A DNA stretch of 32,000 nucleotides from Candidatus Methylomirabilis oxygeniifera (GCA_000091165.1 FP565575.1:1800001-1832000), one strand, 5' to 3'; positions 550 to 21,167 are shown, counted from the first letter of the stretch. The notes: a model not told the origin generated them from the sequence alone. Made by a program: numbers and translations.

Positions 550-1383
550 TCAAGGGTTGATCGCCTCAGAGGCGTCTTCTCGGGCAGAGAACAGATCCCC
601 TGCGTCGGGTGCGAAGGTCATCCAGGGAATACCGAGCGCGGGATGCCGATCTACTAGCACGGACACGCCGAAGACCTCTCGTATCGTATTCGGCCGGATG
701 ACCTCATCCGGGGGACCATCCGCTACGACGCGACCCGATGAGAGAAGGACCAGACGGTCAAAATAGAGTGAAGACAGATTCAGATCGTGAAGCGATGAAA
801 CAATCGTCAGACGGCGCTGAAGGTTGAGATCTTTGATCAGCGACAGCATCCGGATCTGGTGATTGAGATCGAGAGAGCGGGTCGGTTCGTCGAGCAGCAG
901 CAAACGTGGCTGTTGTGCCAGCGCCATCGCCAGGATCACCCGCTGGCGTTCCCCTCCGGAGAGTTCGTTGTACAGGCGGCCGGCAGCAGACAGAAGATCC
1001 GTGGCGGCCATCGCCGCTCGTACCGTGTCCAGGTCCGTATGCGCAGGGCCGCGGTAGCGATGCAGATACGGGGTACGCCCCAATAACACCACCTCCCTCA
1101 CTGTGAGGGAATACGGTAGCAGTAATTCCTGGGGAACCATAGCAATCGCCCGCGCCCGCGTCATTCGGCTCATCCCACCCAGATCTTCGCCCTCGAAAGA
1201 GATCGTACCGTCCCCTGGATGCAACACGCCCAGCATCAGCTTCAGGAGCGTCGTCTTTCCCGAGCCATTCGGGCCGAGAATCGCCACCCGTTCACCAGGC
1301 TCGATACACAGATCGATCCCCGCAAGCCCGAAGCCGCTCGAATAGGTGAAATGAACGCCGTCGAGACGCACCCCTGGCCTCAT
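550..1383 (-). CDS. btuD: ABC transporter ATP-binding protein, FecE/FepC/BtuD family (siderophore/cobalamin importer)
   Basis: Walker A GPNGSGKTT, signature LSGGERQRV, Walker B LLLLDEPT. I chose the start at ATG 1383 (MRPGVRLDGVHF), which overlaps the permease stop as ATGA. The 125-codon upstream extension in the ORF track is Arg/Gly/Cys-rich, overlaps the permease, and is not credible. Confidence 0.9.
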   Translation of the reverse strand: MRPGVRLDGVHFTYSSGFGLAGIDLCIEPGERVAILGPNGSGKTTLLKLMLGVLHPGDGTISFEGEDLGGMSRMTRARAIAMVPQELLLPYSLTVREVVLLGRTPYLHRYRGPAHTDLDTVRAAMAATDLLSAAGRLYNELSGGERQRVILAMALAQQPRLLLLDEPTRSLDLNHQIRMLSLIKDLNLQRRLTIVSSLHDLNLSSLYFDRLVLLSSGRVVADGPPDEVIRPNTIREVFGVSVLVDRHPALGIPWMTFAPDAGDLFSAREDASEAINP

Positions 1384-2444
1384 CGCCACCCCGACTCCTT
1401 TCCGTTTCGCCGTAGGAGGAAAAGAAAAAGGGGACCGCCGAGCAGGGCCGTGAAGATTCCCACGGGAAGTTCCGCCGGAGCTGTGAGGGAGCGCGCTGCC
1501 GTATCCGCCAGTACCAGCAGGGCTGCGCCGGCCAGGGCCGAAGCCGGTAAGAGCCGTCGGTGATCCGACCCGACCAGAAGGCGTAGGATGTGCGGAACAG
1601 CAAGCCCCAGAAATCCGATCAGACCGCTCACGCTGACGGCAGCGCCCGTCAACAGCGCACCGAGCACAATGATCCGGCCGGACTCTCGATCCAGGTCCAC
1701 TCCCAGAGCTTGCGCCCCCTCTTCTCCCACCGTCAGCGCATTGAGCGACACCGCACAACCATATGCCGCAATAATGCCCGCAACAATGATCGGCCCTACT
1801 GCCAACAGTTGTCGCGGATCATTCACTGCGATCCCACCCATAAGCCAGGTAAAGACTTGACGCAATCGAAACTCGCTCCCCTCGAACAGCAGGATGCTCA
1901 ATGAGCCCAGATAGCCGAGAACCGCATTGACAATGACACCCGCGAGCAACAGGGTCACCGGCGAGCAGCGCCCATCTATCCGCGCAAGCCGGTAGACCAG
2001 CAGCACCGCCAGCAGGCCACCGACGAAGGCTGAGACCGCCACCGATCCAAAGCCGAGGATAGAGGCTGGAGGCAGAACAAGCATGGCCACCGTCGCCGCA
2101 AAGCCGGCACCGGCAGATGTGCCGATGATATACGGATCGGCGAGCGGATTGCGAAGGAGCCCCTGGAACAGGACACCGGCAGTCGCCAGGGCTGCGCCTA
2201 CCAACGCTCCGCCGAGGACTCTGGGTAGCCTGAGCTCGAGCAGGATCGTCTCATCCGCGCCCTGCCAGGTGACGGAGCCAAGCGAAATGCCGATCGATCG
2301 AAGAAGGATTTTGAGGATAGTTATAGGAGCTAACGCGACCGCACCCTGCATCACACCGATGAGCAGCGCCAGGAACAGTATGACGGAGAGGATGAGATAG
2401 GTGCGAAGCGAAGGGTGGAGGAGGCGAAAAAAAGACATCATCAT
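1380..2444 (-). CDS. btuC: FecCD-family ABC permease (BtuC-like)
   Basis: About 10 hydrophobic segments. Family-typical motifs: RLPRVLGGALVGAALATAGVLFQGLLRNPLADPYIIG and IGFLGLAVPHILRLLVG. ATGA overlaps with both neighbouring genes. Confidence 0.9.
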   Translation of the reverse strand: MMMSFFRLLHPSLRTYLILSVILFLALLIGVMQGAVALAPITILKILLRSIGISLGSVTWQGADETILLELRLPRVLGGALVGAALATAGVLFQGLLRNPLADPYIIGTSAGAGFAATVAMLVLPPASILGFGSVAVSAFVGGLLAVLLVYRLARIDGRCSPVTLLLAGVIVNAVLGYLGSLSILLFEGSEFRLRQVFTWLMGGIAVNDPRQLLAVGPIIVAGIIAAYGCAVSLNALTVGEEGAQALGVDLDRESGRIIVLGALLTGAAVSVSGLIGFLGLAVPHILRLLVGSDHRRLLPASALAGAALLVLADTAARSLTAPAELPVGIFTALLGGPLFLFLLRRNGKESGWR

Positions 2445-3337
2445 CGAAAGCGGTCCGGGTGCAGCAGTCTGGCTAACAGCTCGAGGCCCTCAACGATCCG
2501 AGGTCCAGGACGACTGATCGTATCCGAGTTGATCGGAGCGATCGCTCCCATGCGCACCGCCCGGATGCCCTTCCAGCCCGGACGTCGAGCCACCAGATCT
2601 GGCATCTGGGAGTTCAGAGAAGTACGGGTATCCCTCAGAATGATCAGATCGGGGTCGGCCCTGATCAGCTCCTCCAGGCTAAACTGAGGCCACGCCGTTT
2701 GCGAGTCCGCAGCGATGTTTATCCCACCCGCAAGTCGAATAAGAATATCGATAAAGGAACCCGGACCGGCCGTAAAGGGGCGGCCTGGGTCACTCCCGTC
2801 AAGCTCAATAAATACCTTGGGCCTTGGGGCATCGCGCACCTTCGCCACGACCGCCGCCACGCGTTGTCGCATAGCGCGAACCAGATCCTCGGCACGCGCC
2901 TCGGCGTCCACGATCCGGCCCATCAGGAGGATGTTTCGGTAGATGTCGTCGAGCGTCCGTGGCGCAAAGATCATCACCTGAATCCCATGGCGCCCAAGAG
3001 GCAGAAGCGATTCGGCGCCCCCATAGGTCGAGAGGATCAGGTCCGGGCTTAAACTCACAATCTGCTCCAGGCTGGGATTAAAAGGAGTCACTCGAGGCTT
3101 GGCTTTTGCAGCCGGCGGAAAGTCGCTCCATTGTTCCACAGCCACAATTCGGTCTTCAGCGCCCAGGGCGAACAATATCTCGGTATTACTCGGCGTCAAG
3201 CTCATGATCCGCTTGGGCGGCCCGTCCAGTGTGACGGACCGCCCTGTATCATCGACAACAGTGAGGGGAGATGCGTCGGCCGAAGCCCATGCCGAGATTA
3301 CCAAGATGAATGACAGCAGGCATCTTCGACACCTCAT
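2441..3337 (-). CDS. btuF: Periplasmic substrate-binding protein of the cobalamin/siderophore (BtuF-like, cluster A) family
   Basis: Signal peptide MRCRRCLLSFILVISAWASA. Also RIMSLTPSNTEILFALGAEDRIVAV and PDLII motifs. Start overlaps the receptor stop (ATGA). Confidence 0.85.
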   Translation of the reverse strand: MRCRRCLLSFILVISAWASADASPLTVVDDTGRSVTLDGPPKRIMSLTPSNTEILFALGAEDRIVAVEQWSDFPPAAKAKPRVTPFNPSLEQIVSLSPDLILSTYGGAESLLPLGRHGIQVMIFAPRTLDDIYRNILLMGRIVDAEARAEDLVRAMRQRVAAVVAKVRDAPRPKVFIELDGSDPGRPFTAGPGSFIDILIRLAGGINIAADSQTAWPQFSLEELIRADPDLIILRDTRTSLNSQMPDLVARRPGWKGIRAVRMGAIAPINSDTISRPGPRIVEGLELLARLLHPDRFR

Positions 3338-5346
3338 AAGCTGCCTTTAAAACCCAGCAAAAAGGTGATCCGCGGGGCGGAGAAACCGAAGGTCTCCTGA
3401 AAGCCCTCATCAAAGAGGTTCTGGACCTTTCCGAAGAGTGACACCTCCCTCAGGTGGAGCCGGTCCTTGAGCAGGAGGTAGGCGAAGGCGACATCGACGG
3501 TGGTGTAGCTGGGAAGCGTGACCCGCGGCGAGGGAAAGGTGCGAAAGTCGAGATCCTCCTGAGCGCCGACAAAGGTCGCCGTCAGGTTGGTATGGAGTCG
3601 CTCCCAGACATGGTCGATAGAAAGCGATCCCCTATGCTTCGGTCGCCGGATCAGCGGTGCGCCGACCGGCAACTCAGTCCCTCCGACGCCGCCATTGTCG
3701 AGAACCTTACTCTCCAAGAATGTGTAGGTGCCGCCCACAGTCAGGCCGAACCCTGGATGTACCCTGGCGGCGGCCTCGATCCCTTTTGCCCTGGCCGACT
3801 GGACATTCCGGAAGCTCGGCGCTCCACCGACAAAGGCGATCAGGTTGGTGAACCGATTGTGGAAGTAGGTCGCATTCAGCTCAACCAGACCCTTGAGCAG
3901 CGACTGATCGAATCCAACCTCCCAACCCCTGGAGCGCTCCGGCTTCAGATCGGGATTGCCGATCACAAACGAGCTGCCGTCGCCGAAGTTCTGAATAAAG
4001 GTGGGCGCTTTGATCCCTTCGCCGTATCCGGCCCGGAGCTTCGTCCCAAAAAATGGGAGGATGTAGGCTCCCGACACGCGGGGGGTCACCTCGGTCCCGA
4101 ATGTGCTGTGCCCATCGACTCGAAACCCCGCCGTTAGGAAAAGCTGTTTCCTCCAGTCGAGCTGACCCTGGAGGTAGCCGGCCTTATTGTCCCGATCGGC
4201 CTCGTTACGGCTTGAAAATGGAAAATCGGTCTCTGTGGCCGCCCCACGCTGCTGGAACTCCTCCCGCTCAAAGGCGAAGCCGACGGTAAAGAGACTGGAG
4301 ACATCAAAAACGGTCGGGGCGGTCAGGTTCCAGAAGTAGTCTGCAGAGACGCGACGCTCCTCATTGGTGCTGTGGAAAGCGGAAAAATCAATGAGCTGCC
4401 CTGTGCGAGGATCCACCGGATCGAATGGGTCGTCAAAGGCCGATTGATGGCGGTAGAAGCCGACCTGCATCGTGTGCTGCCACCAGGGCGTCAGCGCATG
4501 ACTGGCTTTGCCGCTTACGAGCAACCGCGTCCGATCGGACGACTGTCTCGGATCAAGCGGGCTGTAGAGATTCCCGGCATCACCGGTGGGAAACTCGAAC
4601 GCGCTGTCGACGAATCGAACGATCAAGTTGAGGTCCAGCGCCTTTTCTATGGCGTAGTCCAACCGGCCACTGACGGTTGTTTCACGAAAGTCGTTATTGA
4701 TGCGGAGACTTCCCTCGGTATCGGTCCTGCCTACGCTTAACGAGTAGCCGGCTCTCCCACTACCACCAATCAGATTCAACTTTTCTTCAAAGGTACTCAG
4801 ATTCCCGCCTGCGAACGAGACCTCGACTTGCGGGACCCCCTTCCCTCGCTTCGTGAAGATCTGGATCACCGACCCCATGGCATCGGAACCGTACAGCGCG
4901 CTATGCGGCCCCCTGACGATCTCGATCCGCTCGATATTGTCGGTACTCAGATCACTGAAGTCAAAAGAGCCGCCGGCGTCGTTCACCTTGATGCCGTCGA
5001 TCAGTACGAGGTTGAAGCGGGATTCGCCACCCCTCGGAAAGACCGAGACGGTACCGCCGCGACTTCCTGTCTGCGTCACACTCAACCCCGGGACATCCCG
5101 CAGAAGATCCGTCACCTGGGTGACCTGACGAGCTTCGATCTCCTCCTTTGTAATCACGGTGACCGACGCCGCAACCTGTTTTACGGGAACTTCAGTTTTG
5201 GTCGCCGTTACCACCACCGACCCCAACTCTACCGCATCTTCAGGAACCGACCCAATCGTCTGTCCCGACGCACTCCCCGGTCCACAGCACCACAGAATCG
5301 TCGTCCACAACCACCACTTGGCAGCACCATGCCAGCCTGTCATCAC
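3334..5346 (-). CDS. btuB: TonB-dependent outer-membrane receptor (BtuB-like; first gene after a cobalamin riboswitch)
   Basis: Signal peptide, then plug-domain motifs VVVTATKTE, VTVITKEEIE, DLLRDVPGLSV, RGPHSALYGSDAMGSVIQIFTK. Long beta-barrel region ending in an aromatic-rich C-terminus. The start may be ATG 5343 rather than GTG 5346. Confidence 0.9.
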   Translation of the reverse strand: MMTGWHGAAKWWLWTTILWCCGPGSASGQTIGSVPEDAVELGSVVVTATKTEVPVKQVAASVTVITKEEIEARQVTQVTDLLRDVPGLSVTQTGSRGGTVSVFPRGGESRFNLVLIDGIKVNDAGGSFDFSDLSTDNIERIEIVRGPHSALYGSDAMGSVIQIFTKRGKGVPQVEVSFAGGNLSTFEEKLNLIGGSGRAGYSLSVGRTDTEGSLRINNDFRETTVSGRLDYAIEKALDLNLIVRFVDSAFEFPTGDAGNLYSPLDPRQSSDRTRLLVSGKASHALTPWWQHTMQVGFYRHQSAFDDPFDPVDPRTGQLIDFSAFHSTNEERRVSADYFWNLTAPTVFDVSSLFTVGFAFEREEFQQRGAATETDFPFSSRNEADRDNKAGYLQGQLDWRKQLFLTAGFRVDGHSTFGTEVTPRVSGAYILPFFGTKLRAGYGEGIKAPTFIQNFGDGSSFVIGNPDLKPERSRGWEVGFDQSLLKGLVELNATYFHNRFTNLIAFVGGAPSFRNVQSARAKGIEAAARVHPGFGLTVGGTYTFLESKVLDNGGVGGTELPVGAPLIRRPKHRGSLSIDHVWERLHTNLTATFVGAQEDLDFRTFPSPRVTLPSYTTVDVAFAYLLLKDRLHLREVSLFGKVQNLFDEGFQETFGFSAPRITFLLGFKGSL

Positions 5347-5383
5347 TCGCCCCCTTATCCGCGAAGGTGGTACGTTGTCTGTT

Positions 5384-5635
5384 CCCCTGGATAGGTCTCC
5401 TGACTTGTGGATCGTTGCCGACTCTGCGCCTTCCCATCCACATAGCGTTTAGTGTTGAGTGTTAAGTGTTGAGTTTCAGATCCTCATACTTCACACTTAA
5501 CACTTTTCACTAAACACTGCCCTTTGGACAGTGGCATCATGCAGAGCGACTCCCCACTCACAGTGGCGGGACCGTGCTGGCTTTACCCTGCCGCAGTATA
5601 TGGCAGGACACACCAGCTTCCCTTACATCCAGGGG
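5384..5635 (-). promoter_or_regulatory. Cobalamin (AdoCbl) riboswitch aptamer controlling the btuB operon
   Basis: Minus-strand read: P1 5' arm CCCCTGGAT (5635-5627), then AAGGGAAGCTGGTG, GGTAAAGCCAGCACGGTCCCGCCACTGTGAG, ATGCCACTG-[long hairpin]-GGGAAGGCG, and the B12 box AAGTCAGGAGACCTATCC. The P1 3' arm ATCCAGGGG is at 5392-5384. The RBS AAGGGGG lies about 30 nt downstream, and no terminator is visible, so translational control is likely. Confidence 0.85.
5446..5520. repeat. Heptamer-armed hairpin (AGTGTTG-type), copy 1, inside the variable hairpin of the btuB riboswitch
   Basis: Plus strand: TAGTGTTG AGTGTTA AGTGTTG AGTTT, a loop, then CACACTTAACACTTTTCACTAAACACT. The arms are imperfectly complementary tandem 7-mers. 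Confidence 0.8.
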
Positions 5636-5782
5636 CGCCCGGTTCGACTTATCACATTGGACTATCCGTATTGGCCTCTCTCACCCCCCTTCAAGCTTGT
5701 TACTCATTCCACTGCAGCAAAGATCCGGCTCACCTCTGCTCCGCAACACAAATCTCCCAACCCTCCGAGGAAGACTTGACCA

Positions 5783-6523
5783 CTACCGTCCATCCCCAAG
5801 CCCTGCGACAACGAGGAAGACGATTTCCGACAACTCGATCGCAGCGCCGTAGACGTCACCCGTGAGACCGCCGAGGCGACGCTTCAGCCACACACCCATC
5901 CCCAGCGCAACGGCAAGCGCAGACGCTCCCGGCACGATAATACGCACGCCCGTCCAGGCTACCAAGGCCAACGTCAGGCACGTCGCCACAGCAAAATGGA
6001 GCGGGCGCCCGTGCCGGTGGAAGGGCTTCCCCAGACCCTCGACCCGCACGTACGGGAAGAAGATGACCAGTGGAATCACCGCCCATCGCGCCAGAATGGG
6101 AAAGGCGAACAGTTGCCATACGGCGTCATGCCTGAGTACTGTCATAACGGTGAACACCTTTGCGATCACAAACAAGCAGAGGACCGTAGCTCCGTGGGCG
6201 CCGATTCGGCTGTCTTTCATAATCGCAAGCATACGCCGGCGATCCCCACGCCCCCCGCCGAAAGCGTCCGATACGTCGGCCAGCCCGTCCAGATGAAGGC
6301 CGCCCGTGATCGCCGCAAGGAGCGCCACGAGGCCGACTGCCATCAGGTCTGAGGGTAGATAACCGCGCAGGAGCCGCTCGGTCCCGACAAGCGCGAGTCC
6401 CAGCACCATCCCAACGATGGGAAACCACGAAAGCGAACGACCCAAGTCGACATCTTCGGCTAGGGCATTCTTTACCGGCAGTCGTGTCAAGAAACCGAAA
6501 GCAATGGCAAGCGATTGAAGCAT
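5783..6523 (-). CDS. cobS: Adenosylcobinamide-GDP ribazoletransferase (cobalamin synthase)
   Basis: MLQSLAIAFGFLTRLPV N-terminus typical of CobS. Polytopic membrane protein with the LDGLADVSDAFGGG and GGLTGDVYGA motifs. The ORF-track start at 6604 would add 27 atypical residues and overlap cobT, so ATG 6523 is preferred. Confidence 0.85.
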   Translation of the reverse strand: MLQSLAIAFGFLTRLPVKNALAEDVDLGRSLSWFPIVGMVLGLALVGTERLLRGYLPSDLMAVGLVALLAAITGGLHLDGLADVSDAFGGGRGDRRRMLAIMKDSRIGAHGATVLCLFVIAKVFTVMTVLRHDAVWQLFAFPILARWAVIPLVIFFPYVRVEGLGKPFHRHGRPLHFAVATCLTLALVAWTGVRIIVPGASALAVALGMGVWLKRRLGGLTGDVYGAAIELSEIVFLVVAGLGDGR

Positions 6524-6593
6524 TCTTCTCACGGCAAAGATGAATACAGACCGGCGAAATCCCAAGAGGGACGGCGCCGGCACTGCTACACAA

Positions 6594-7652
6594 CTAAACG
6601 CCACTATCGTTCACCCCCGCCGAGGTGAATGTCGCCATCTCGCGAAGGATGTGCAGCGCTGCCTCGACAAGATTCATGGCCAGCACCGCGCCGGTGCCTT
6701 CACCTAAACGTAGGTCCAGATCGAGCAGGGGTGTGGTGCCGAGCGCCTGGAGCACCAGCCGGTGCCCTGCCTCCGCAGAGCGGTGCGAGGCAATGAGGTG
6801 CCCTGCCGCACGCGGCGCGATTCGCGTCGCGGCGAGCGCCGCGCTGCCGCAGATGAATCCGTCGATCACTATTGCCATCCGAGACGCCGCTCCGCCCAAG
6901 ATGACGCCGGCGAGTCCGGCGATCTCGAATCCCCCTACCTTAGCCAGGGCATCGACGCCATCCTGTGGATCAGGACGGTTGAGCAAGAGCCCGCGCCGAA
7001 TGGCGTCAATCTTCTGTTTGAGGGCCACATCGTCAATACCGGTCCCTCGGTCCGCTACGTCTTCCGGAGGCACTCCTGTGAACACCGCGGTCAGGGCGCT
7101 CGCGGCGGTCGTATTGCCGATACCCATATCGCCGATGCCCAGAAGGGTCACCCCGTCACGCGCCAATTCCCCGGCAATCTGAATGCCGACTTCGACGGCC
7201 GTGATGACCTCTTCCCGTGTCATCGCCGGCCCTCTTGTAAAGTTGCGCGTACCGGACCCGATTCGGTGCGCCCGAACTCCCGACGCCGCGCACAGCGGCG
7301 CCTTCACGCCCATATCCACGATCACGACCCTGGCGCCGGCATGTCGCGCCAACACGTTGATCGCCGCGCCGCCGCGCGCGAAGTTGAGCAGCATCTGGCC
7401 GGTGACCTCTTGCGGATAGGCGCTGACGCCCTCCTCGGCCACGCCGTGGTCAGCCGCCATGACCACAATAGCCTTCTGAGGAAGATCGGGTACGCTCGTG
7501 CCGCGAATCGCCGCTACTTGGCAGGCAAGGTCCTCGAGTCGACCGAGACTCCTCCGCGGTTTGGTTTTGAGGTCCAACAGTCGTTGCGTTCTCTCCGCAA
7601 TCCGCTGATCCGGCTCTTTGATGCGGGAACAGATCTCAGTCAATGTGCTCAT
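6594..7652 (-). CDS. cobT: Nicotinate-nucleotide--dimethylbenzimidazole phosphoribosyltransferase
   Basis: KTKPRRSLGRLEDLACQVAAIRG, VVMAADHGV, GIGDMGIGNTTAASAL, LRLGEGTGAVLAM. Full-length CobT-like protein. Confidence 0.9.
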   Translation of the reverse strand: MSTLTEICSRIKEPDQRIAERTQRLLDLKTKPRRSLGRLEDLACQVAAIRGTSVPDLPQKAIVVMAADHGVAEEGVSAYPQEVTGQMLLNFARGGAAINVLARHAGARVVIVDMGVKAPLCAASGVRAHRIGSGTRNFTRGPAMTREEVITAVEVGIQIAGELARDGVTLLGIGDMGIGNTTAASALTAVFTGVPPEDVADRGTGIDDVALKQKIDAIRRGLLLNRPDPQDGVDALAKVGGFEIAGLAGVILGGAASRMAIVIDGFICGSAALAATRIAPRAAGHLIASHRSAEAGHRLVLQALGTTPLLDLDLRLGEGTGAVLAMNLVEAALHILREMATFTSAGVNDSGV

Positions 7653-8212
7653 AGTGGGCTTCCCAGGGTTCGAACCGACACAGGCTCGGGTCGGATGCGC
7701 AGAATCAACCCGAGGATCGCCAGGTAGATCTCATCTGCGACGCCGGCCAGTCGTTGGTGGGTACGGCCCGCAACGTCCCGGAAGGCCCTTCCGAGCGACG
7801 TCTCCGGCACCACGCCCATCCCCACCTCGTTCGTTACGATGACGGCGTGGAACGCCCGCCGCTCCAGGACGCCGACAAGGGTGTGCACCTGCTCCAAGAC
7901 CCTCGTCTCCGACCTGTCCCGGAGCAGCAAGTTCGAAAGCCACAGGGTCAGGCAGTCGATTACGACGACGTCGATATCACGAAGATCGAGCAACCTCTCA
8001 GCCAGAGCGAGCGGCTCCTCGACGGTCTGAAAGTCGGTACCGCGTGTGCGGACATGGTTCGCAATTCTCTCCTTCATCTCCTCATCCAGGGCCTGCGCGG
8101 TCGCGATGAATGCGCGCCGGGTGCCGAGGCGCCGCGCCAGCGAGAGGGCGAAGGCGCTCTTGCCGGATCGCACTCCTCCCCCGATCAATACGATCCTGGT
8201 TTCATCGCTCAT
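7649..8212 (-). CDS. cobU: Bifunctional adenosylcobinamide kinase / adenosylcobinamide-phosphate guanylyltransferase
   Basis: P-loop IGGGVRSGKSAFA, plus VVIDCLTLWLSNLL and VIVTNEVGMGVVPE motifs. About 187 aa. ATGA overlap with cobT. Confidence 0.9.
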   Translation of the reverse strand: MSDETRIVLIGGGVRSGKSAFALSLARRLGTRRAFIATAQALDEEMKERIANHVRTRGTDFQTVEEPLALAERLLDLRDIDVVVIDCLTLWLSNLLLRDRSETRVLEQVHTLVGVLERRAFHAVIVTNEVGMGVVPETSLGRAFRDVAGRTHQRLAGVADEIYLAILGLILRIRPEPVSVRTLGSPL

Positions 8213-9047
8213 CTGCCGACGCCTCCGCGAGCAGCGATTGAACTACTGCACGCGACTCCTCAAAATCAGCCTCACGAAAGACTTCGAGCGTCAGCACACC
8301 GCGGTACGACACGCTCAGCAGGGTATCGACGACCCAGCGTGCACGCTCGTGCGGGTAGTACTTAAGCGAGCGGTGATCTCGCCCCGATGGGTCCACGCCA
8401 TGCCACTGGATCACCCGCGTACGGTGCAGGTTTCGAAGAAGCAGATCTCGCTCCTGACGCTCGTCGCGGTGAAGGTGCCCGAGATCAATCGCCACAGAGA
8501 GGCCAAGATCCGTGACGACCGGCTCGATATACGAGAAATCGTAGTCGAGCGTTTCGATGCATACGTCCGCCGAAGGAATCCCGCTGTCCAAAATGGCCTC
8601 GAGCGACCCCGCCGCACGGCGACGCCAGGCTCGAATATCCGTTGGCGTCTTATCATGTTCGCAGTCGCCCAAGTCGATATGCACGATATCGGCGTACGGC
8701 TTAAGCGGCCTCGCCAGCTCGATCGCGCGGCAGACCTGCTCAATGGCCGTCTGACGCTGCGAATCGCTGTCACTCGCCAGACTGACGTTGAGAGGCGTGT
8801 GCACCGTATAGGTTAGATCGGCTCGCCCCTTCCACTCAGCGAGCCCGCGCAGTTCCGCATCATCCGGAACGCCGCAATCAAGCTCAAACAGGAGGATCTC
8901 AATATCATCGACTTGACCGGCCAGCCGCTCGACGTTTGGAAGCCATCGGGCCGGGTAGATAAACGAAGTGGTCCCGATGCGAAATGGTACGTTCACCACG
9001 GCCTGTTCGCCTATGCAGCCCGCAATGAGGTCCTTACTGCTTGTCAT
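8202..9047 (-). CDS. cbiR: Xylose-isomerase-like TIM-barrel / AP-endonuclease-2 superfamily protein, probable cobamide-remodelling phosphodiesterase (CbiR-like)
   Basis: Start taken at ATG 9047 (MTSSKDLIAG). FRIGTTSFIYPARWLPNVERLAGQVDDIEILLFE, and later HTPL, H.D and LEV metal-ligand-like positions of the TIM-barrel fold. It is embedded between bluB and cobU under a B12 riboswitch. The family assignment is from memory of CbiR-type sequences, not from a search. Confidence 0.55.
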   Translation of the reverse strand: MTSSKDLIAGCIGEQAVVNVPFRIGTTSFIYPARWLPNVERLAGQVDDIEILLFELDCGVPDDAELRGLAEWKGRADLTYTVHTPLNVSLASDSDSQRQTAIEQVCRAIELARPLKPYADIVHIDLGDCEHDKTPTDIRAWRRRAAGSLEAILDSGIPSADVCIETLDYDFSYIEPVVTDLGLSVAIDLGHLHRDERQERDLLLRNLHRTRVIQWHGVDPSGRDHRSLKYYPHERARWVVDTLLSVSYRGVLTLEVFREADFEESRAVVQSLLAEASADER

Positions 9048-9801
9048 CAGTGGGATAGGCCCTCGACGGAGTCTGCGGACATACATCCTCGCTCGCGCGC
9101 TCACCGTTAATCCGGCTCGTTTCAAGCGCGCGGAGCAGGTCTGGTCGTGGCCGCGCAGCCCAACGGTCATGGAAGACCACCTCTTGCAGAGGAAGCCGCG
9201 GCAACCAGCCCCTGGTCTCGAGTGCGGGCTGCGCCGGAAAGCTCTCGACGAAACCGACGCACAGGTAGGCAATGGGAATGATCCGGTCAGGGATTCCCAG
9301 AATGCTGCGAAGAGCACCAGGATCGAGGATGCTCACCCACCCGACGCCGAGACCTTCTGCGCGTGCAGCAAGCCAGAGGTTCTGGACGGCGCAGCAGGTA
9401 CTATAAACCGCGGTTTCCGGAATCGTGTTCCGTCCAATCACTGCCGGTCCAAAGCGCTCATGGTCGCACGTCACGCATAGGTTGATGGGTGCATCGAGGA
9501 TCCCTTCCAGCTTGAAGGAGAGATACGCCTCGCGGCGCTCCTTCTCAAACATTTCTGCGGCACGCAACCGCTCCACCTCAACATGTGCGCGGACCTGCCT
9601 GCGGACTTCACGGTCCTCAACAACAAGAAAGTTCCACGGCTGCGAGAATCCGACTGAGCCGGCCTGATGAGCCGCCAAGAGGATGCGAGCAAGGGTCTCC
9701 GCCGGAATGGAATCGGGGAGAAAGGCCCGCATGTCGCGGCGGCGCGTAATCGCCTCATAGAGGGCTCTACGCGACGCTTCAGGAAAGGCATGATCTGTCA
9801 T
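9034..9801 (-). CDS. bluB: 5,6-dimethylbenzimidazole synthase (BluB, flavin destructase of the nitroreductase fold)
   Basis: Close motif-by-motif match to BluB: RRDMRAF, SVGFSQPWNF, FKLEGI, CVTCD, YSTCCAVQNLWLAARAEGLGVGWVSI, ILGIPD, GWLPRLPLQEVVF. First gene behind a cobalamin riboswitch. Confidence 0.88.
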   Translation of the reverse strand: MTDHAFPEASRRALYEAITRRRDMRAFLPDSIPAETLARILLAAHQAGSVGFSQPWNFLVVEDREVRRQVRAHVEVERLRAAEMFEKERREAYLSFKLEGILDAPINLCVTCDHERFGPAVIGRNTIPETAVYSTCCAVQNLWLAARAEGLGVGWVSILDPGALRSILGIPDRIIPIAYLCVGFVESFPAQPALETRGWLPRLPLQEVVFHDRWAARPRPDLLRALETSRINGERASEDVCPQTPSRAYPTDDKQ

Positions 9802-9883: not shown

Positions 9884-9919
9884 TAACAAAAAACCCCAAT
9901 TCTCCGAGGAGAATTGGGG
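9884..9919 (-). terminator. Intrinsic terminator forming the expression platform of the bluB riboswitch
   Basis: Minus strand: CCCCAATTCTC-CTCG-GAGAATTGGGG followed by TTTTTTGTT. An 11-bp perfect stem located between the aptamer (ends about 10012) and the bluB start (9801). Confidence 0.75.
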
Positions 9920-10011
9920 TGTCACTCCCAAACTAAACGCTACACCTGCGCCGCGAGAAATCCGTTCCGCGACAAGGCCGCCCTCCCCCTCGGAAGGTCA
10001 TCAGCACCTAA

Positions 10012-10269
10012 AGGTTGGGCAGGTCTCCTGACTCGCGGCTTAGCTTACTCTCTGCGCCTTCCCGTCCAAGTAGTGTTGAGCGTTTAGCGTTGAGTGTCGG
10101 GTTCTGGAACTACACACTCAACACTTACAACTTAACACTTGTCTTTTGGACAGTGGCGTTCAGCAGATTTCAATGCCGCTTACAGTTGCGGGGCAGCAAC
10201 GGCCTGACCTTCTACGCTTTGCGAAGGCTTCACCGTTTTCCCTGTTTCCGCTCTTAGCGGACCCAGCCT
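10012..10269 (-). promoter_or_regulatory. Cobalamin riboswitch aptamer controlling bluB-cbiR-cobUTS
   Basis: Minus-strand read: P1 AGGCTGGGT, then GGAAACAGGGAAAACGGTGAAG, GCTGCCCCGCAACTGTAAG, ACGCCACTG-[long hairpin]-GGACGGGAAGGCG, and the B12 box GAGTCAGGAGACCTGCCCAACCT. Confidence 0.85.
10071..10143. repeat. Heptamer-armed hairpin (AGTGTTG-type), copy 2, in the homologous variable hairpin of the bluB riboswitch
   Basis: Plus strand: AGTGTTG AGCGTTT AGCGTTG AGTGTCG, a loop, then CACACTCAACACTTACAACTTAACACT. Confidence 0.8.
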
Positions 10270-10294
10270 CACCCGATTTCGTCGGGACGCGGTA

Positions 10295-10642: not shown

Positions 10643-10663
10643 CGCTTGAAATCACCTCCTTCC
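10569..10663. repeat. 95-nt perfect direct repeat, copy A (RBS plus signal-peptide coding part of the small-protein genes)
   Basis: Identical to 10862-10956 base for base. The flanking bases differ. Confidence 0.9.
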
Positions 10664-10935: not shown

Positions 10936-10956
10936 CGCTTGAAATCACCTCCTTCC
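10862..10956. repeat. 95-nt perfect direct repeat, copy B
   Basis: Identical to 10569-10663. Confidence 0.9.
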
Positions 10957-15665: not shown

Positions 15666-15850
15666 GCGATCAGCGAGATAGCTCTCAGCGCTCAGCCGTC
15701 AGCAATCAGCCAATAAACGTCATTCCCGCGAAATCGGGAATTCAGAACACGACTGGATTCCGGATCAAGTCCGGAATGACAAACTGCTCAAAACAACGCA
15801 CACGAGTATACCTATATCTTCGGCTGAAAGCTGATCGCTGATCGCTCAGT
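15666..15850. repeat. Composite palindromic element: (TCAGCNN)n arm, cloverleaf REP-like core, (GCTGANN)n arm
   Basis: Left arm: TCAGCGC TCAGCCG TCAGCAA TCAGCCA (15685-15712). Core at 15719-15780: GTCATTCCCGCGAAATCGGGAATTCAGAACACGACTGGATTCCGGATCAAGTCCGGAATGAC. Right arm: GCTGAAA GCTGATC GCTGATC GCTCAGT (15823-15850), which overlaps the stop codon of the DsrE-like gene. Confidence 0.65.
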
Positions 15851-16211
15851 AAGAAACCGATCGATCGTACTCCACAAGCAGTTGGGCGTACCGTTTGATG
15901 TCGATCTTCTCGGCCACCGGCACACGCTTGAGGTCTTCGTCCAAGACCCCACGGGTCTGGGCTCACCCCCCTCAGAGATAGATCGGGATCTGATGATCCA
16001 CGGCAAACTGAAACAGCTCGTCGAGCGGTGGAAGACCATAGGGCTTGACGTGCTGCCGAAACTCCGGCTTGATCAGAACCGTCGCATCGAGCGCCAGTAC
16101 AATGCCGACGTCGATGCCCGACTCCTTCGCGCCCTTCGCCACGAAGAACGGCATCGCCGCCCGCGTGGAGTTATCGTACCCATGGGTTGCCGTAATCAGC
16201 AATCTCGCCAT
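15846..16211 (-). CDS. DsrE/YchN-family sulfur-relay-like protein; putative selenoprotein with two in-frame UGA codons (U-G-G-U); 121 codons
   Basis: RBS GGAGGGAGGGG. The 79-aa track ORF stops at TGA 15974-15972. The same frame reads TGA GGG GGG TGA, then 38 sense codons AQTRGVLDEDLKRVPVAEKIDIKRYAQLLVEYDRSVSY, to TGA 15848-15846. The motif IPIYL-U-GG-U-AQTRGV lines up with the L-C-xx-C-xxxRG(I/V) active-site region of YchN/TusD-type proteins. Total length matches the family. Confidence 0.55.
15932..15960 (-). promoter_or_regulatory. Candidate bacterial SECIS hairpin(s) downstream of the two UGA codons
   Basis: Minus strand: CCAGACCC-GUG-GGGUCU(U)GG (15960-15941), with the paired stem starting 11 nt after UGA1. 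An overlapping alternative, GGUCUU-GGACG-AAGACC (15948-15932), starts 14 nt after UGA2. Confidence 0.35.
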
Positions 16212-18567: not shown

Positions 18568-21167
18568 TGGTCGCCGTCCAGGATCAGAGCCGTTCTCGCC
18601 ACGCGCAATTTCGTCTCCCACCCATCATACCGGCCGTTGAGGGTCTCCTTCAAGAGGTGAGCCATAATCACGTGCGGTCGTACACCACCACCCTGACCCG
18701 CACTCAGGTGGATGTCCCAGCAAAGCGCCCCTTCTTCCTCCCCCAAGACTACCAACTCCCGGATCTGCGGACGGGCGTCCACCTCGACCCGCCTCTCCTT
18801 CCGCTCTACACTCACCGGAATGCTGGGTCGATCGAGCCACTCATCGCAGAGCGCCTGAGTGCGAAGCCGCTCGCCAATCTCTTGAGCACAGCCGTTCAGG
18901 GGCAACGACACGCGATAGGCGGCCTCCCGTACTGACGTCGTCAGCGATGGCGCCGTCAACGGAACCTCCCAGGCGCGAAGCAACTGCAGTTCGGCCGCAA
19001 GGCAACGATTGACCCGCTCCACCAACTCCTCCGGCGCCATGGCCACGCGAAGCTCGATGTCCGCTAATTCCTGTCGCCCCTCAACCCCCACCGGAAGCGC
19101 GAGGGCACACGACAGTTTCGGCTGGGGGTTAAACCCCTGCGAGTAGGCCAGGGCAATCCCGGCCCGACGCAACGCTCGGCCCAGCGCCCTCATCAACTCC
19201 AGATGCGACAGAAACCGGAGCATCCCAATCTTCTGAAAAACACACCGAATGCGCTGTACCGGCGCTTCATGCAAAGTGTTGAGTGTTGAGTGTTGAGTGT
19301 TGAGCCCGCTAGCAGGATCAACACAGCGTGGACTTGCCGCTTGACACTTATCACTAGACACTGTCATTCCCACCTGTTCCGCCCAAGTCGGCCAACTCGG
19401 CATGCAGATCTCGCCGCAGGCCGTACAGGCGGCTGTATGACAATCGGGCGTCCCGCGAACCTCCATGGCCTTCTTGTACTCCCGCTGCAGGAACGCCTTG
19501 TTGACACCGGAGTCGATATGATCCCACGGCAACGGCTCATCTACGTTACGCGGCCGATTCGCGAACGCCCTCGGATCAATCCCCGTCTCGTCGAAGGCCT
19601 GCATCCACCGGTCGAACTTCAGATGTTCGGTCCAGCCGTCAAACCGGCACCCCAGCTCGTAGCCGCGCCGGACAACGCGCCCAAGCGAACGGTCGCCCAG
19701 CGAGAACACCGCCTCCAGAAACGAGGACTGGACGTTATGCCACTTATACGACACCCTGATCTCCCGAAACTTCCGTCTCAGGAACTCCTGCTTGTCCTTG
19801 AGCATCTCCATCGGCTCCTGGGCACACCACTGGAAGGGCGTATGCGGCTTCGGCACAAATGAGGAGGTGCTGACCGTCAGTCCAAAGCCTCTCGTCGACT
19901 CGGCCCGCGCGATCCTCGCCGATTCCCGCGTGATCCGAACGATTTCGTCCAGATCTTCCTGTGTCTCGGTCGGCAGTCCGATGATAAAGTAAAACTTGAC
20001 CGACTCCCAACCCGCCCTGGCGGCGTTCCGTACGGCCGTGAAGATCTGCTCCTCGTCGAACCCCTCCTTGTTGATCACCTTCCGAAGCCGACTGCTTCCG
20101 GCTTCCGGCGCGATGGTGAAGCCGGTCTTCCGAACCCGGCTGATCTCCTCGGCCACCTGCGGAAACCGGTTCAGCGTTTCGACCCGGAGAGAGGGAAGCG
20201 ACAGCGAGATCTTCTCCGGCAGGAGCCGGTCCATCAATGCAGGCACCACGTCGGGCAGGACTGTCAGATCGGCGATGCTCAACGAGGCGAGGGAGACCTC
20301 TTCGTATCCCGTCTGCCGGACCGCCTGCACGGCCAACTGCTGGATCTCCTCCGCCGATCGCTCTCGAAGTGGCCGATACAGGTAGCCCGCCTGGCAAAAC
20401 CGGCACCCCTGGGTACAGCCCCGCATCACCTCGATGCTCACGCGGTCGTGAACGATCTCCATGAACGGGACCGGGAAGGCGCCGTAATCGATCCCGTCCA
20501 GATGGATCGCCGTCCGTTTGCGGATGGTCTCGCCCTGGTGGAGTGCCGGGACGTAGCAGCCCGGGATCCTGGCCCATGCTTCAAGCAGCGCGTCACGCCG
20601 CCCGCCTGAGGCTTTCCATGCGGCCGCCGCCTCGCAGACCTCGAGGACGACCTCCTCACCGTCGCCCAGGACGAACAGATCGATGAACTCCGCGATCGGC
20701 TCGGGGTTGAAGCCGACGGACCCGCCCGCAATCACAAACGGATCGCCTTCCCGCCGCTCAGCACTTCCCAAAGGGACGCCGGCCAGGTCTAACATATTCA
20801 GGATCGTCGTATAGGAGAGTTCATACTGGAGGGTGAAGCCGATGAGATCGAAATCGGCCAGACTGTAACCGGATTCAAGGGTACACAGCGGAATCCGCCC
20901 CCGCCGCAGCAGCGCTTCCGCATCGGGCCAGGGCGCATAGACCCGTTCCGTCATAAACTCCGGTCGCCGGTTCAAGATCTGGTACAGAATCTTCAGGCCG
21001 ACATGGGACATGCCGATTTCGTAGGTATCGGGAAAGGCGAGGGCAATCTTCACAGATGTTGCGGCGGGGTCTTTCCTGACGGCGTTCCACTCCATTCCGA
21101 TATAGCGAGACGGCTTGCTGACCCCGGGAAGAATCTCGTCCACTATCGCTTGTCGGAAGCTACGCAC
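18564..21167 (-). CDS. B12-binding-domain radical SAM protein (TIGR03960-like) fused to a DUF2344/TIGR03936-like C-terminal domain
   Basis: N-terminus VSKPSRYIGMEWN. Radical SAM cluster motif CTQGCRFCQAGYLYRP. C-terminal half RIRCVFQKIGMLRFLSHLELMRALGRALRRAGIALAYSQGFNPQPK. The two halves are joined by a linker that contains the heptamer repeat. Confidence 0.88.
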   Translation of the reverse strand: MRSFRQAIVDEILPGVSKPSRYIGMEWNAVRKDPAATSVKIALAFPDTYEIGMSHVGLKILYQILNRRPEFMTERVYAPWPDAEALLRRGRIPLCTLESGYSLADFDLIGFTLQYELSYTTILNMLDLAGVPLGSAERREGDPFVIAGGSVGFNPEPIAEFIDLFVLGDGEEVVLEVCEAAAAWKASGGRRDALLEAWARIPGCYVPALHQGETIRKRTAIHLDGIDYGAFPVPFMEIVHDRVSIEVMRGCTQGCRFCQAGYLYRPLRERSAEEIQQLAVQAVRQTGYEEVSLASLSIADLTVLPDVVPALMDRLLPEKISLSLPSLRVETLNRFPQVAEEISRVRKTGFTIAPEAGSSRLRKVINKEGFDEEQIFTAVRNAARAGWESVKFYFIIGLPTETQEDLDEIVRITRESARIARAESTRGFGLTVSTSSFVPKPHTPFQWCAQEPMEMLKDKQEFLRRKFREIRVSYKWHNVQSSFLEAVFSLGDRSLGRVVRRGYELGCRFDGWTEHLKFDRWMQAFDETGIDPRAFANRPRNVDEPLPWDHIDSGVNKAFLQREYKKAMEVRGTPDCHTAACTACGEICMPSWPTWAEQVGMTVSSDKCQAASPRCVDPASGLNTQHSTLNTLHEAPVQRIRCVFQKIGMLRFLSHLELMRALGRALRRAGIALAYSQGFNPQPKLSCALALPVGVEGRQELADIELRVAMAPEELVERVNRCLAAELQLLRAWEVPLTAPSLTTSVREAAYRVSLPLNGCAQEIGERLRTQALCDEWLDRPSIPVSVERKERRVEVDARPQIRELVVLGEEEGALCWDIHLSAGQGGGVRPHVIMAHLLKETLNGRYDGWETKLRVARTALILDGDQ
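19275..19362. repeat. Heptamer-armed hairpin (AGTGTTG-type), copy 3, in frame inside the radical SAM gene linker
   Basis: Plus strand: (AGTGTTG)x4 at 19275-19302, a 34-nt spacer, then GCTTGACACTTATCACTAGACACT. Translated on the minus strand as SSDKCQAASPRCVDPASGLNTQHSTLNTLH. Confidence 0.8.

What the first reader, a model, noticed from the sequence alone, without database searches (positions are those of the whole stretch)
10071..10143. Both cobalamin riboswitches carry the same odd heptamer-repeat hairpin in the same variable loop (second copy at 5446-5520)
In both aptamers the short variable hairpin that normally sits between GCCACUG and GGGAAGGC is replaced by a hairpin of about 75-85 nt.

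The arms of that hairpin are tandem 7-mers (plus-strand reading):
- Copy at 5446-5520: AGTGTTG AGTGTTA AGTGTTG ... CACACTTAACACTTTTCACTAAACACT.
- Copy at 10071-10143: AGTGTTG AGCGTTT AGCGTTG AGTGTCG ... CACACTCAACACTTACAACTTAACACT.

The closing helices (UCCA/UGGA and GUCCAA/UUGGAC) are at the canonical position, so the aptamer cores look intact. The same heptamer family occurs a third time in a protein-coding linker at 19275-19362.

That pattern argues for a mobile or expanding repeat that survives only at structurally tolerant sites, rather than a riboswitch-specific peripheral domain. The architecture recalls cyanobacterial STRR heptanucleotide repeats (for example CAACAGT). I am not aware of such repeats being described inside riboswitch loops.
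Basis: seen in the sequence. Interest (0 to 1): 0.7.

Follow-up and report, generated by a model that had tools for sequence, protein, structure and literature searches.

The report
Heptamer-repeat hairpins inside two B12 riboswitches
Both vitamin-B12 riboswitches of this Methylomirabilis oxyfera region carry an ~80-nt hairpin built from tandem 7-base repeats in the same exposed loop; it belongs to a dispersed repeat-hairpin family that also sits in frame inside proteins, so it is a tolerated passenger, not a riboswitch-specific part.

Summary
Rfam finds two cobalamin riboswitches on the minus strand (10001-10281 and 5373-5647). Each has a 78 or 84 nt insertion in the terminal loop of the GCCACUG/GGGAAGGC hairpin. 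The inserts are tandem AGTGTTR / YAACACT heptamers that fold into long hairpins.

The window is Ca. Methylomirabilis oxyfera (NC10). Two sister species carry an insert at the same loop, while a more distant NC10 btuB riboswitch has a plain GCAA tetraloop. Aptamer flanks are 82-95% identical between species, but the inserts are only 61-67% identical. The heptamer unit changes (AGTTTYG to AGTGTTG) with compensatory changes on both arms. In M. lanthanidiphila a 118-nt tract including the insert is identical in the two otherwise 59-66% identical riboswitches, which indicates gene conversion.

The same species-specific units occur in frame in a radical-SAM linker and a histidine-kinase loop. None was in a riboswitch context, and many lie in frame in diverse proteins.

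Mobility itself is unproven. The closest parallels are STRR repeats in cyanobacterial RNase P RNA and Rickettsia palindromic elements.

The parts
10001..10281 (-). Cobalamin riboswitch aptamer RS2. It has a P2 hairpin and a long P6 extension (Cbl-I-like) and lies upstream of the bluB-like/cobU/cobT/cobS operon.
   Evidence: RF00174, 97.8 bits, E 1.8e-23, full model 1-189. Downstream genes by Pfam.
10068..10145 (-). 78-nt heptamer-repeat hairpin replacing the terminal loop of the GCCACUG/GGGAAGGC hairpin of RS2. In RNA sense it reads 5' (AGUGUUR)n, apex with GAACCCGA, (YAACRCU)n 3'.
   Evidence: cmscan shows *[78]* at the loop. Inverted arms 10072-10104/10107-10139. Period-7 arrays. Fold -42.8 kcal/mol, z -5.4.
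9893..9920 (-). Intrinsic terminator-like hairpin plus T-run between the RS2 aptamer and the bluB start (9801). This is the likely expression platform, acting by transcription attenuation.
   Evidence: 12-bp stem, then TTTTTTGTT.
5783..9801 (-). Operon downstream of RS2: bluB-like nitroreductase (9034-9801), AP_endonuc_2 protein, cobU (7649-8212), cobT (6594-7652), cobS (5783-6604).
   Evidence: Pfam hits. Gene calls in L001.
5373..5647 (-). Cobalamin riboswitch aptamer RS1. It has no P2 hairpin but a long P6 extension. It lies about 30 nt upstream of the btuB-like TonB-dependent receptor start, so control is probably translational.
   Evidence: RF00174, 82.5 bits, E 4.3e-19. btuB start at 5343 from the gene calls.
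5440..5523 (-). 84-nt heptamer-repeat hairpin replacing the same terminal loop in RS1.
   Evidence: cmscan shows *[84]*. Arms 5444-5479/5483-5518. Period-7 arrays. Fold -41.6 kcal/mol, z -5.8.
1380..5343 (-). btuB-like TonB-dependent receptor (3334-5343), btuF-like periplasmic binding protein (2441-3337) and btuC-like permease (1380-2444), all controlled by RS1.
   Evidence: Pfam Plug/TonB_dep_Rec, Peripla_BP_2, FecCD.
19275..19362 (-). Third copy of the same heptamer family, in frame in the linker between the radical-SAM and DUF2344 domains of ORF 18564-21167. One arm is a perfect (AGTGTTG)x4.3. The other arm is degenerate and so avoids stop codons.
   Evidence: TRF score 60, 100% matches. 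Translation and Pfam. The orthologous linkers of 30+ NC10 proteins carry 7-aa periodic peptides with lineage-specific units. DNA of the M. lanthanidiphila linker.
23027..23080 (-). Heptamer hairpin of a second unit family (ACCCTAY / GGGTGTG), in frame in a loop of the HATPase_c domain of histidine kinase ORF 22753-24987. M. lanthanidiphila has an AGTTTSG-type hairpin at the orthologous site.
   Evidence: Period-7 scan. Sequences. Fold z -2.9. The same HATPase_c site is occupied in metagenome kinases.
15679..15851 (.). Intergenic element whose outer arms are inverted tandem heptamers of a third family (TCAGCGN / GCTGATC) enclosing about 105 nt. The site is conserved in four other NC10 genomes.
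   Evidence: Period-7 scan. Fold -73.4 kcal/mol, z -3.8, with the heptamer arms paired.

Best explanation
The ~80-nt inserts are copies of a family of inverted tandem-heptamer (hairpin-forming) repeat elements that populate Methylomirabilis genomes. Look-alikes occur in many other bacteria.

**Where they sit.** In both riboswitches the element occupies the terminal loop of the distal hairpin of the P6 extension. I take this hairpin to be P11, next to the J11/10 adenosines. That assignment is inferred from published Cbl-I architecture and was not tested. A coaxial helix extension there points away from the ligand pocket. This explains why the aptamers still score as complete cobalamin riboswitches with intact expression platforms.

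**History.** The elements entered these loops before M. oxyfera, M. lanthanidiphila and a third sister species diverged, and they have stayed since.

**How they evolve (concerted evolution at three levels).**
- Among tandem units, probably by slippage.
- Between the two arms, where complementarity is kept by compensatory change.
- Between loci, by gene conversion or recombination between copies. This gives each species its own unit at several sites.

**Function.** They persist where an extra helix (in RNA) or a flexible peptide (in proteins) is tolerated. They most likely have no ligand-sensing role. At most they add a stable helix to the P6 extension.

**Shown versus inferred.**
- Shown: location, hairpin potential, conservation of site, unit turnover with compensation, a conversion tract, dispersal to coding and intergenic sites.
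- Inferred: neutrality for riboswitch function, and the molecular mechanism of spread and homogenisation.
For: - **Loop insertion with intact cores:**. Terminator platform after RS2.
- **Organism:** M. oxyfera. The window is 100% identical to named records.
- **Same loop occupied in relatives:** L125 species, btuB riboswitch, 85 nt. M. lanthanidiphila, both riboswitches, 79 nt each. A more distant NC10 btuB riboswitch (L130) has CUGUCU-GCAA-GGAUGG with no insert.
- **Flank and insert identities:** Orthologous flanks are 82-95% identical but inserts only 61-67%. Paralogous flanks are 56-66% identical, yet the M. lanthanidiphila inserts are 100% identical, within a 118-nt identity tract.
- **Compensatory unit change:** The unit shifts from AGTTTYG/CRAAACY to AGTGTTR/YAACACT in register on both arms. 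The consensus fold has 32 pairs, 6 with double-sided changes among only 4 sequences.
- **Same unit at other sites of the same genome:** the radical-SAM linker and the kinase loop.
- **Shared apex motif:** (R)GAACCCGA(AAC) across sites and species.
- **Period-7 enrichment:** 32 regions in 142 kb of NC10 DNA, against 1-3 for periods 4, 5, 8, 10 and 11.
- **In-frame coding copies:** ComEC, U32 peptidase, histidine kinases, GT9, GT1, Lnt and a P-type ATPase.
- **Coding compatibility:** the AGTTTCG unit is stop-free in all six frames.
- **Cross-phylum occurrence:** inverted tandem-heptamer architecture with AGYGTTD-type units is seen in titled genomes of many phyla.
Against: - No whole-genome census of M. 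oxyfera was possible. In the 47.6 kb I could read there are only three CAACACT-type copies, and two of them are the riboswitch ones.
- Retention at both riboswitch loops in three species, with compensatory changes and a conserved apex motif, would also fit selection for an RNA-level function.
- No target-site duplication, no empty-site polymorphism among close strains and no transposase were seen. Four independent M. oxyfera assemblies are essentially identical where they overlap the window: three at 100%, one at 99.9%. L003 covers RS2 only, L004 covers neither hairpin fully, and L001/L002 cover both.
- The kinase site in M. oxyfera carries a different unit (ACCCTAY) from its riboswitches, so homogenisation is not genome-wide.
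- The taxonomy of the metagenome contigs is unknown.
Confidence: 0.7

Rival explanations
1. The long hairpin is a lineage-specific functional extension of the riboswitch. It would be a selected P11 elongation that tunes co-transcriptional folding, RNA stability or ligand response. The copies elsewhere would be coincidental or secondary.
For: - The insert is kept at the same loop of both riboswitches in three species, with length held at 78-85 nt.
- The helix is maintained by compensatory changes.
- The apex motif is conserved.
- It lies next to the GGGAAGGC segment, which in Cbl-I riboswitches supplies adenosines to the AdoCbl pocket (PMC7367189).
Against: - The same element type sits in frame in protein linkers and loops and in intergenic DNA.
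- 0 of 122 metagenome matches are in a riboswitch context.
- A related NC10 btuB riboswitch works with a GCAA tetraloop.
- Insert sequence diverges much faster than the aptamer.
- One sister species has lost the whole subdomain in its bluB riboswitch.
Confidence: 0.12
2. The heptamer hairpins are recognition sites of a trans-acting, species-specific factor. This could be a hairpin-binding nuclease or transposase of the REP/RAYT kind, or an RNA- or DNA-binding regulator. The factor would co-evolve with the unit, and the riboswitch copies would be part of that system's target set.
For: - Units are species-specific and shared by unrelated loci of one genome: both riboswitches and the radical-SAM linker in M. 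oxyfera, plus the kinase loop in M. lanthanidiphila.
- An apex motif is shared.
- The architecture is very abundant and uniform in metagenomes, typically 3-5 units per arm.
Against: - No candidate gene lies in the ~48 kb read around the window.
- Several unit families coexist in one genome.
- REP/RAYT elements are extragenic, whereas these are often intragenic.
- Nothing here tests binding.
Confidence: 0.1
3. Each hairpin grew locally and independently, by slippage of a chance heptamer plus palindrome formation. On this view there is no relationship between loci, and the similarity of units is mutational bias.
For: - Heptanucleotide repeats are reported as the most abundant long simple sequence repeat (SSR) class in many bacterial genomes, and polymerase slippage has been proposed as the cause (PMC4679880 and PMC4692102).
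- A perfect (AGTGTTG)x4.3 run suggests recent slippage.
Against: - A 118-nt tract including the 79-nt insert is identical in two riboswitches that are 59-66% identical elsewhere.
- The apex motif is shared between loci and species.
- The same derived unit appears at three loci of M. oxyfera.
- The two-arm architecture is uniform in at least 120 contigs.
Confidence: 0.08

Closest known systems
STRR heptanucleotide repeats inside the RNase P RNA gene of heterocyst-forming cyanobacteria (Vioque 1997, Nucleic Acids Res 25:3471; title seen, content from my own knowledge because the paper was not held)
   Same: - Tandem 7-nt repeats from a genome-wide dispersed family.
- They are embedded in a variable peripheral helix of a conserved structured RNA.
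- They lengthen that helix without destroying the core.
   Different: - The host RNA is a riboswitch, not RNase P RNA.
- The phylum is NC10, not Cyanobacteria.
- The units are different.
- Here the same elements also lie in frame in proteins, and concerted unit turnover across species is documented.
Rickettsia palindromic elements (RPE; Ogata et al. 2000 Science, from my own knowledge)
   Same: - Short palindromic repeat elements dispersed in a genome.
- They are found in frame inside protein-coding genes, at positions compatible with the fold, as well as in non-coding regions.
   Different: - RPEs are 100-150 bp unique-sequence palindromes, not tandem heptamers.
- They are restricted to Rickettsia.
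- No riboswitch-loop case and no unit-level concerted evolution are described for them.
Long simple sequence repeats with 7-nt units in bacterial genomes (Mrazek et al. 2007 as summarised in PMC4679880 and PMC4692102; TAACTGA repeats of Beggiatoaceae; GGGNATC repeats of Xanthomonas and Nostoc; heptanucleotide elements of Geobacter metallireducens, PMC2700814)
   Same: - Heptamer unit with a few tandem copies (four is typical).
- Tens to hundreds of dispersed copies.
- Both intergenic and some intragenic locations.
   Different: - Those are described as direct arrays, some forming G-quadruplexes or proposed as regulator sites.
- The elements here are two inverted arrays forming a long hairpin with a defined apex.
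- They sit in RNA loops and in protein loops or linkers.
REP/REPIN elements with RAYT transposases
   Same: - Hairpin-forming dispersed repeats with species-specific sequence.
- Long-term residence at orthologous loci.
   Different: - REPs are extragenic and not built of tandem heptamers.
- No RAYT-like gene was seen in the ~48 kb read here.

Membership tests
Cobalamin riboswitch (Rfam RF00174; Cbl-I architecture) | Covariance-model score above the curated gathering threshold over the full model | tested here: met
   97.8 and 82.5 bits against a gathering score of 31.5, model positions 1-189.
Cobalamin riboswitch (Rfam RF00174; Cbl-I architecture) | Long P6 extension containing GCCACUG and GGGAAGGC, plus the B12-box-like AGUCAGGAGACCUG | tested here: met
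   Both motifs align with high posterior probability in both copies. The architecture description comes from PMC7367189. RS2 has the P2 hairpin and RS1 lacks it.
Cobalamin riboswitch (Rfam RF00174; Cbl-I architecture) | Control of B12 transport or synthesis genes through an expression platform | tested here: met
   RS1 lies about 30 nt upstream of btuB-btuF-btuC. RS2 is followed by a terminator-like hairpin and then bluB-cobU-cobT-cobS.
Cobalamin riboswitch (Rfam RF00174; Cbl-I architecture) | Binding of adenosylcobalamin and a ligand-dependent switch | not testable with these tools
   Needs in-line probing or reporter assays.
Cyanobacterial STRR families | Tandem heptanucleotide units, several copies per array | tested here: met
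   Period-7 arrays of 3.9-4.4 copies.
Cyanobacterial STRR families | Membership of the named STRR unit sequences in cyanobacterial genomes | tested here: not met
   The organism is NC10. The units are AGTGTTG/CAACACT, ACCCTAC and GCTGATC. The resemblance is one of kind, not of family.
Dispersed palindromic repeat elements (MITE/RPE-like) | Many copies at unrelated loci | tested here: inconclusive
   - In M. oxyfera: 3 CAACACT-type copies plus 3 elements of other units in 47.6 kb. No genome-wide count was possible.
- At the level of the ancestral unit: at least 120 metagenome contigs and 4 sites in 22.6 kb of M. lanthanidiphila.
Dispersed palindromic repeat elements (MITE/RPE-like) | In-frame occurrence inside genuine protein-coding genes | tested here: met
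   Radical SAM/DUF2344 linker and kinase HATPase_c loop. ComEC, U32 peptidase, GT9, GT1, Lnt and P-type ATPase in metagenome loci.
Dispersed palindromic repeat elements (MITE/RPE-like) | Signs of transposition: target-site duplication, filled versus empty orthologous sites, a cognate transposase | tested here: inconclusive
   - One empty site in a distant relative (L130).
- No obvious target duplication at the riboswitch junctions.
- No transposase in the ~48 kb read.
REP/RAYT (REPIN) systems | Strictly extragenic hairpin repeats accompanied by a RAYT gene | tested here: not met
   Elements are frequently intragenic. No Y1-transposase gene appears in the gene tables of the region. The rest of the genome was not searchable.

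The most novel reading that the evidence does not exclude
Inverted tandem-heptamer hairpins may be an unrecognised class of self-propagating or actively homogenised elements, widespread across bacterial phyla. Their ancestral unit (AGTTTCG) is stop-free in all six frames. This would let them colonise permissive loops of both proteins and structured RNAs, riboswitches included. Their unit would be kept species-specific by inter-copy conversion or by a co-evolving trans-acting factor.
Probability: 0.3. Interest if true: 0.8.

Novelty: new variant of a known kind. Interest (0 to 1): 0.6.

Why it matters
- **For riboswitch annotation and engineering.** The terminal loop of the distal P6-extension hairpin of cobalamin riboswitches can carry about 35 extra base pairs for long evolutionary periods. 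An odd long insert there need not mean a new ligand-sensing domain.
- **For genome biology.** Elements at orthologous sites in three species give an unusually clean natural experiment. They show unit replacement with compensatory change on both arms, a visible gene-conversion tract, and one hairpin-base deletion that removed a whole riboswitch subdomain.
- **Wider significance.** The elements are also abundant in frame in proteins of uncultured soil and groundwater bacteria. This suggests a neglected source of linker and loop variation and of RNA helix extension.
- **Testable question.** The origin and spread of heptanucleotide repeats has been open since their description in cyanobacteria. 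This system makes it testable in NC10 genomes.

Tried and rejected
- **Genome-contig scan.** It was salvaged only as evidence that similar inverted heptamer arrays occur in many phyla.
- **Protein search with (QHSTLNT)x6.** This is the translation of (CAACACT)n. It returned only short spurious ORFs from cyanobacteria, Prevotella and others, and none from M. oxyfera. It did not help to sample the genome.
- **Walking the genome.** This is limited to ±10 kb around window genes. The extra 15.6 kb added only the (ACCCTAC)x3.5 array and no new CAACACT copy.
- **Radical-SAM orthologue loci.** Lookups of three further species stopped just short of their riboswitches. They confirmed lineage-specific units at the linker (CAACCCC, GGCAGGC/CCCCCAR, AGTTTSG) but not the within-genome match to riboswitch inserts in those species.
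- **Literature.** Vioque 1997 is not held. A search for repeats in cobalamin riboswitch loops returned nothing relevant. Literal searches for the repeat strings found no bacterial description.
- **Rejected: single origin by duplication.** I considered that the two M. oxyfera riboswitches are recent duplicates that inherited one insert. The aptamer flanks are only 60-63% identical, and each is 82-95% identical to its own orthologue.
- **Rejected: contingency locus.** Independent M. oxyfera assemblies are identical at these loci where they cover them.
- **Not assigned: terminator role for (ACCCTAC)x3.5.** The array just outside the window is followed by T6, but its fold is no better than shuffles (z +1.1).

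Full report
**1. What is in the window**

Rfam's cobalamin model (RF00174) matches twice on the minus strand: 10001-10281 (97.8 bits) and 5373-5647 (82.5 bits). Both cover the whole model. In both alignments the hairpin formed by GCCACUG...GGGAAGGC keeps its closing helix. Its consensus 4-nt loop is replaced by 78 and 84 unaligned nucleotides.

Tandem Repeats Finder reports period-7 arrays in exactly these inserts, plus a perfect (AGTGTTG)x4.3 at 19275-19304. The double unit is strongly over-represented: 16 matches with up to 3 mismatches against 1.56 expected. The two inserts are the longest short-range inverted repeats in the window. They fold into long hairpins with z-scores of -5.8 and -5.4.

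**2. Context**

The window is Candidatus Methylomirabilis oxyfera (phylum NC10). It is 100% identical to an ENA record named Methylomirabilis_oxyfera and to GCA_009026205.1. Its radical-SAM protein is carried on a 2,752,854-bp contig named Ca. Methylomirabilis oxygeniifera.

- RS1 lies about 30 nt upstream of a btuB-like TonB receptor, followed by btuF- and btuC-like genes.
- RS2 is followed by a terminator-like hairpin (9893-9920) and then bluB-like, cobU, cobT and cobS genes.

Published Cbl-I structures describe a P7-P11 extension of P6 that folds back to the core, with J11/10 adenosines shaping the adenosyl pocket (PMC7367189). On that basis I place the insert at the tip of the distal hairpin (P11). 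This placement is an inference, not a test.

The third copy lies in the linker between the radical-SAM and DUF2344 domains of an 867-aa protein and is translated as LNTQHSTLNTLH.

**3. Orthologous riboswitches**

I used CobT and radical-SAM homologues to fetch related contigs.

- An unnamed sister species (L125; CobT 89% identical) has an 85-nt insert at the same loop of its btuB riboswitch.
- M. lanthanidiphila (L133) has 79-nt inserts in both an RS2-type and an RS1-type riboswitch.
- A more distant NC10 contig (L130; CobT 81%) has a btuB riboswitch with a plain CUGUCU-GCAA-GGAUGG hairpin.

The inserts therefore predate the split of these three species but are not universal.

Sequence identities separate the insert from its host:

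| Comparison | Aptamer flanks | Inserts |
|---|---|---|
| Orthologous riboswitches, between species | 82-95% | 61-67% |
| M. oxyfera RS1 vs RS2 | 60-63% | 69% |
| M. lanthanidiphila RS1-type vs RS2-type | 59-66% | 100% |

In M. lanthanidiphila the identity tract is 118 nt long. It runs from UCUGCAGAAUGCCACUG to GGGAAGGCGCAG and is flanked by divergent sequence. This is the signature of gene conversion.

The unit differs between species. It is AGTTTYG/CRAAACY in the two sister species and AGTGTTR/YAACACT in M. oxyfera. The change is in register, with G-for-T on the 5' arm matched by C-for-A on the 3' arm in several units. A consensus fold of four inserts has 32 pairs, six of them with double-sided compensatory changes.

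**4. It is not riboswitch-specific**

- **Radical-SAM linker.** In more than 30 NC10 orthologues the linker is hypervariable and full of 7-residue periodic peptides (PETRNPK, PNPQPPT, SSEFRVSS), which are translated heptamer repeats. DNA from M. lanthanidiphila shows an AGTTTSG/GAAACCC hairpin there, the same unit family as in its riboswitches. M. oxyfera has its own CAACACT unit there.
- **Histidine kinase.** M. lanthanidiphila has a further copy in a loop of the HATPase_c domain of a histidine kinase. M. oxyfera has a hairpin of a different unit (ACCCTAY) at the orthologous position.
- **Third unit family.** GCTGATC forms the outer arms of an intergenic element at 15679-15851, and that site is conserved in four other genomes.
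- **Just outside the window.** An (ACCCTAC)x3.5 array lies there.
- **Period specificity.** Over 142 kb of NC10 DNA, period 7 gives 32 repeat regions. Periods 4, 5, 8, 10 and 11 give 1-3.
- **Shared apex.** Elements at different sites and in different species share the apex motif (R)GAACCCGA(AAC). This argues for common descent or exchange, not independent growth.

**5. Breadth**

My rough expectation by chance was of the order of ten. That figure rests on an assumed database size of about 10^12 bases and is not a computed value.

- Every match has the same two-arm tandem-heptamer architecture.
- Contig GC ranges from 0.32 to 0.73.
- None of the 122 matches is flanked by GCCACUG/GGGAAGG.
- 66 of the 122 are spanned by a stop-free frame of at least 150 codons.

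Pfam confirms real host proteins with the element in linkers or as intradomain insertions: ComEC, U32 peptidase, two histidine kinases (the same HATPase_c loop), GT9, GT1, Lnt and a P-type ATPase.

The AGTTTCG unit has no stop codon in any of the six frames. The derived AGTGTTG unit creates TGA on one strand, which explains the degenerate second arm in the M. oxyfera linker.

The earlier genome scan was otherwise a failure. It does show inverted tandem-heptamer arrays with AGYGTTD-type units in titled genomes of Acidobacteriota, Chloroflexota, Verrucomicrobiota, Planctomycetota, Bacteroidota, Nitrospinota, Omnitrophota, Pseudomonadota and others.

**6. Interpretation**

The best reading (about 0.7) is a passenger. 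A dispersed, hairpin-forming heptamer-repeat element occupies a solvent-exposed terminal loop, is tolerated there, and evolves in concert with other copies.

- Directly shown: its location, its persistence, unit turnover with compensation, a conversion tract, and its presence at coding and intergenic sites.
- Inferred: that it is neutral for B12 sensing, and the mechanism of homogenisation (slippage within arms, hairpin-templated or selected compensation between arms, recombination between loci).

I could not exclude a lineage-specific functional extension of the riboswitch (0.12). Retention and structural compensation fit it. The non-riboswitch copies, the fast sequence turnover, the tetraloop relative and the loss of the whole subdomain in one species argue against it. 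A trans-factor or transposase system (0.10) would explain species-specific units but has no candidate gene in the ~48 kb examined. Independent local slippage (0.08) is contradicted by the identity tract and the shared apex.

**7. Comparison with known systems**

- The closest precedent for a heptamer-repeat family inside a structured RNA is the STRR sequences within cyanobacterial RNase P RNA genes (Vioque 1997). I saw the reference but the paper is not held, so details rest on my knowledge.
- The closest precedent for palindromic repeats in frame in proteins is the Rickettsia palindromic elements (my knowledge).
- Heptanucleotide repeats are reported as the most abundant long SSR class in many bacteria. 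Multicopy heptanucleotide elements were annotated in Geobacter metallireducens.
- I found no description of such repeats in a riboswitch loop, nor of these unit strings as bacterial elements. The library is limited, so this is absence of evidence only.

I therefore rate the finding as a new variant of a known kind.

**8. Limits**

- There is no genome-wide census for M. oxyfera.
- The taxonomy of the metagenome contigs is undetermined.
- The P11 assignment and functional neutrality are untested.
- Mobility is unproven.

Noticed in passing
L125:6415-6579 (orthologue of window 10001-10281): In one sister species the bluB riboswitch has lost the whole GCCACUG...hairpin...GGGAAGGC subdomain. 53 model positions are replaced by 11 nt, and the deletion endpoints lie at the base of the stem (AUCU|GC...GCAGAGAGU|AAGG). 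It still scores 68 bits. What remains is a P2 module plus a short P6 extension, which resembles the atypical B. subtilis yvrC architecture described in PMC7367189. This may be a hairpin-mediated deletion.
   Followed up: partly
L133:21744-22517: M. lanthanidiphila has an RS2-type riboswitch with its terminator (about 22108-22145). About 110 nt further on comes the RS1-type riboswitch, then the TonB receptor. This is a tandem arrangement with no bluB-cobS operon in between. A short GCTGATN-type heptamer array sits between the two riboswitches.
   Followed up: partly
window 5783-9801 versus L125, L128, L130, L136, L137: The M. oxyfera bluB-cob operon looks eroded. BluB is 255 aa without the CobA/CobO domain that is fused to it in relatives (433 aa). 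cbiA, cbiZ, cobD and others are absent, and L125 keeps only a 128-aa GATase_3 remnant. Together with the btuBFCD cluster this suggests a shift towards corrinoid salvage.
   Followed up: no
window 10559-10663 and 10852-10956: A 105-bp direct duplication (97% identical) lies inside two adjacent small ORFs (78 and 81 aa, no Pfam hit) just upstream of RS2. Similar small ORFs occur at the same place in relatives.
   Followed up: no
window 15700-15820: The core enclosed by the GCTGATC heptamer arms contains two small palindromes of the form ATTCCS-N8-SGGAAT (ATTCCGGACTTGATCCGGAAT and ATTCCCGATTTCGCGGGAAT). From memory, this pattern resembles the Neisseria dRS3 repeat.
   Followed up: no
window 5580-5610 and 10200-10230 (minus strand): Both riboswitches also carry a hairpin insertion of about 25 nt in the L4 loop region (between GGUG and the AAA/CC closing strand). 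It is not heptameric. The L130 relative lacks it.
   Followed up: no
L262:14039-14080 (about 2.7 kb beyond window position 1): A perfect (ACCCTAC)x3.5 array is followed by TTTTTT, downstream of a prenyltransferase gene. It looks like a terminator, but the predicted fold is no better than shuffles (z +1.1).
   Followed up: partly
window 437-504: An inverted repeat contains a period-8 tandem (TTGCGGAT x2) just downstream of the btuD-like ABC ATPase gene. It is another small repeat hairpin, but not of period 7.
   Followed up: no
L033, L036, L078, L081 (Chloroflexota MAG LAG bin19); L045 (Chthonomonadales): Unrelated genomes carry near-perfect inverted arrays of the very same units seen in M. oxyfera. 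Examples are (AGTGTTG)x6...(CAACACT)x5 in a Chloroflexota MAG and (GGTGTAG)/(ACACCCT) in Chthonomonadales. Particular heptamer units therefore recur across phyla.
   Followed up: partly
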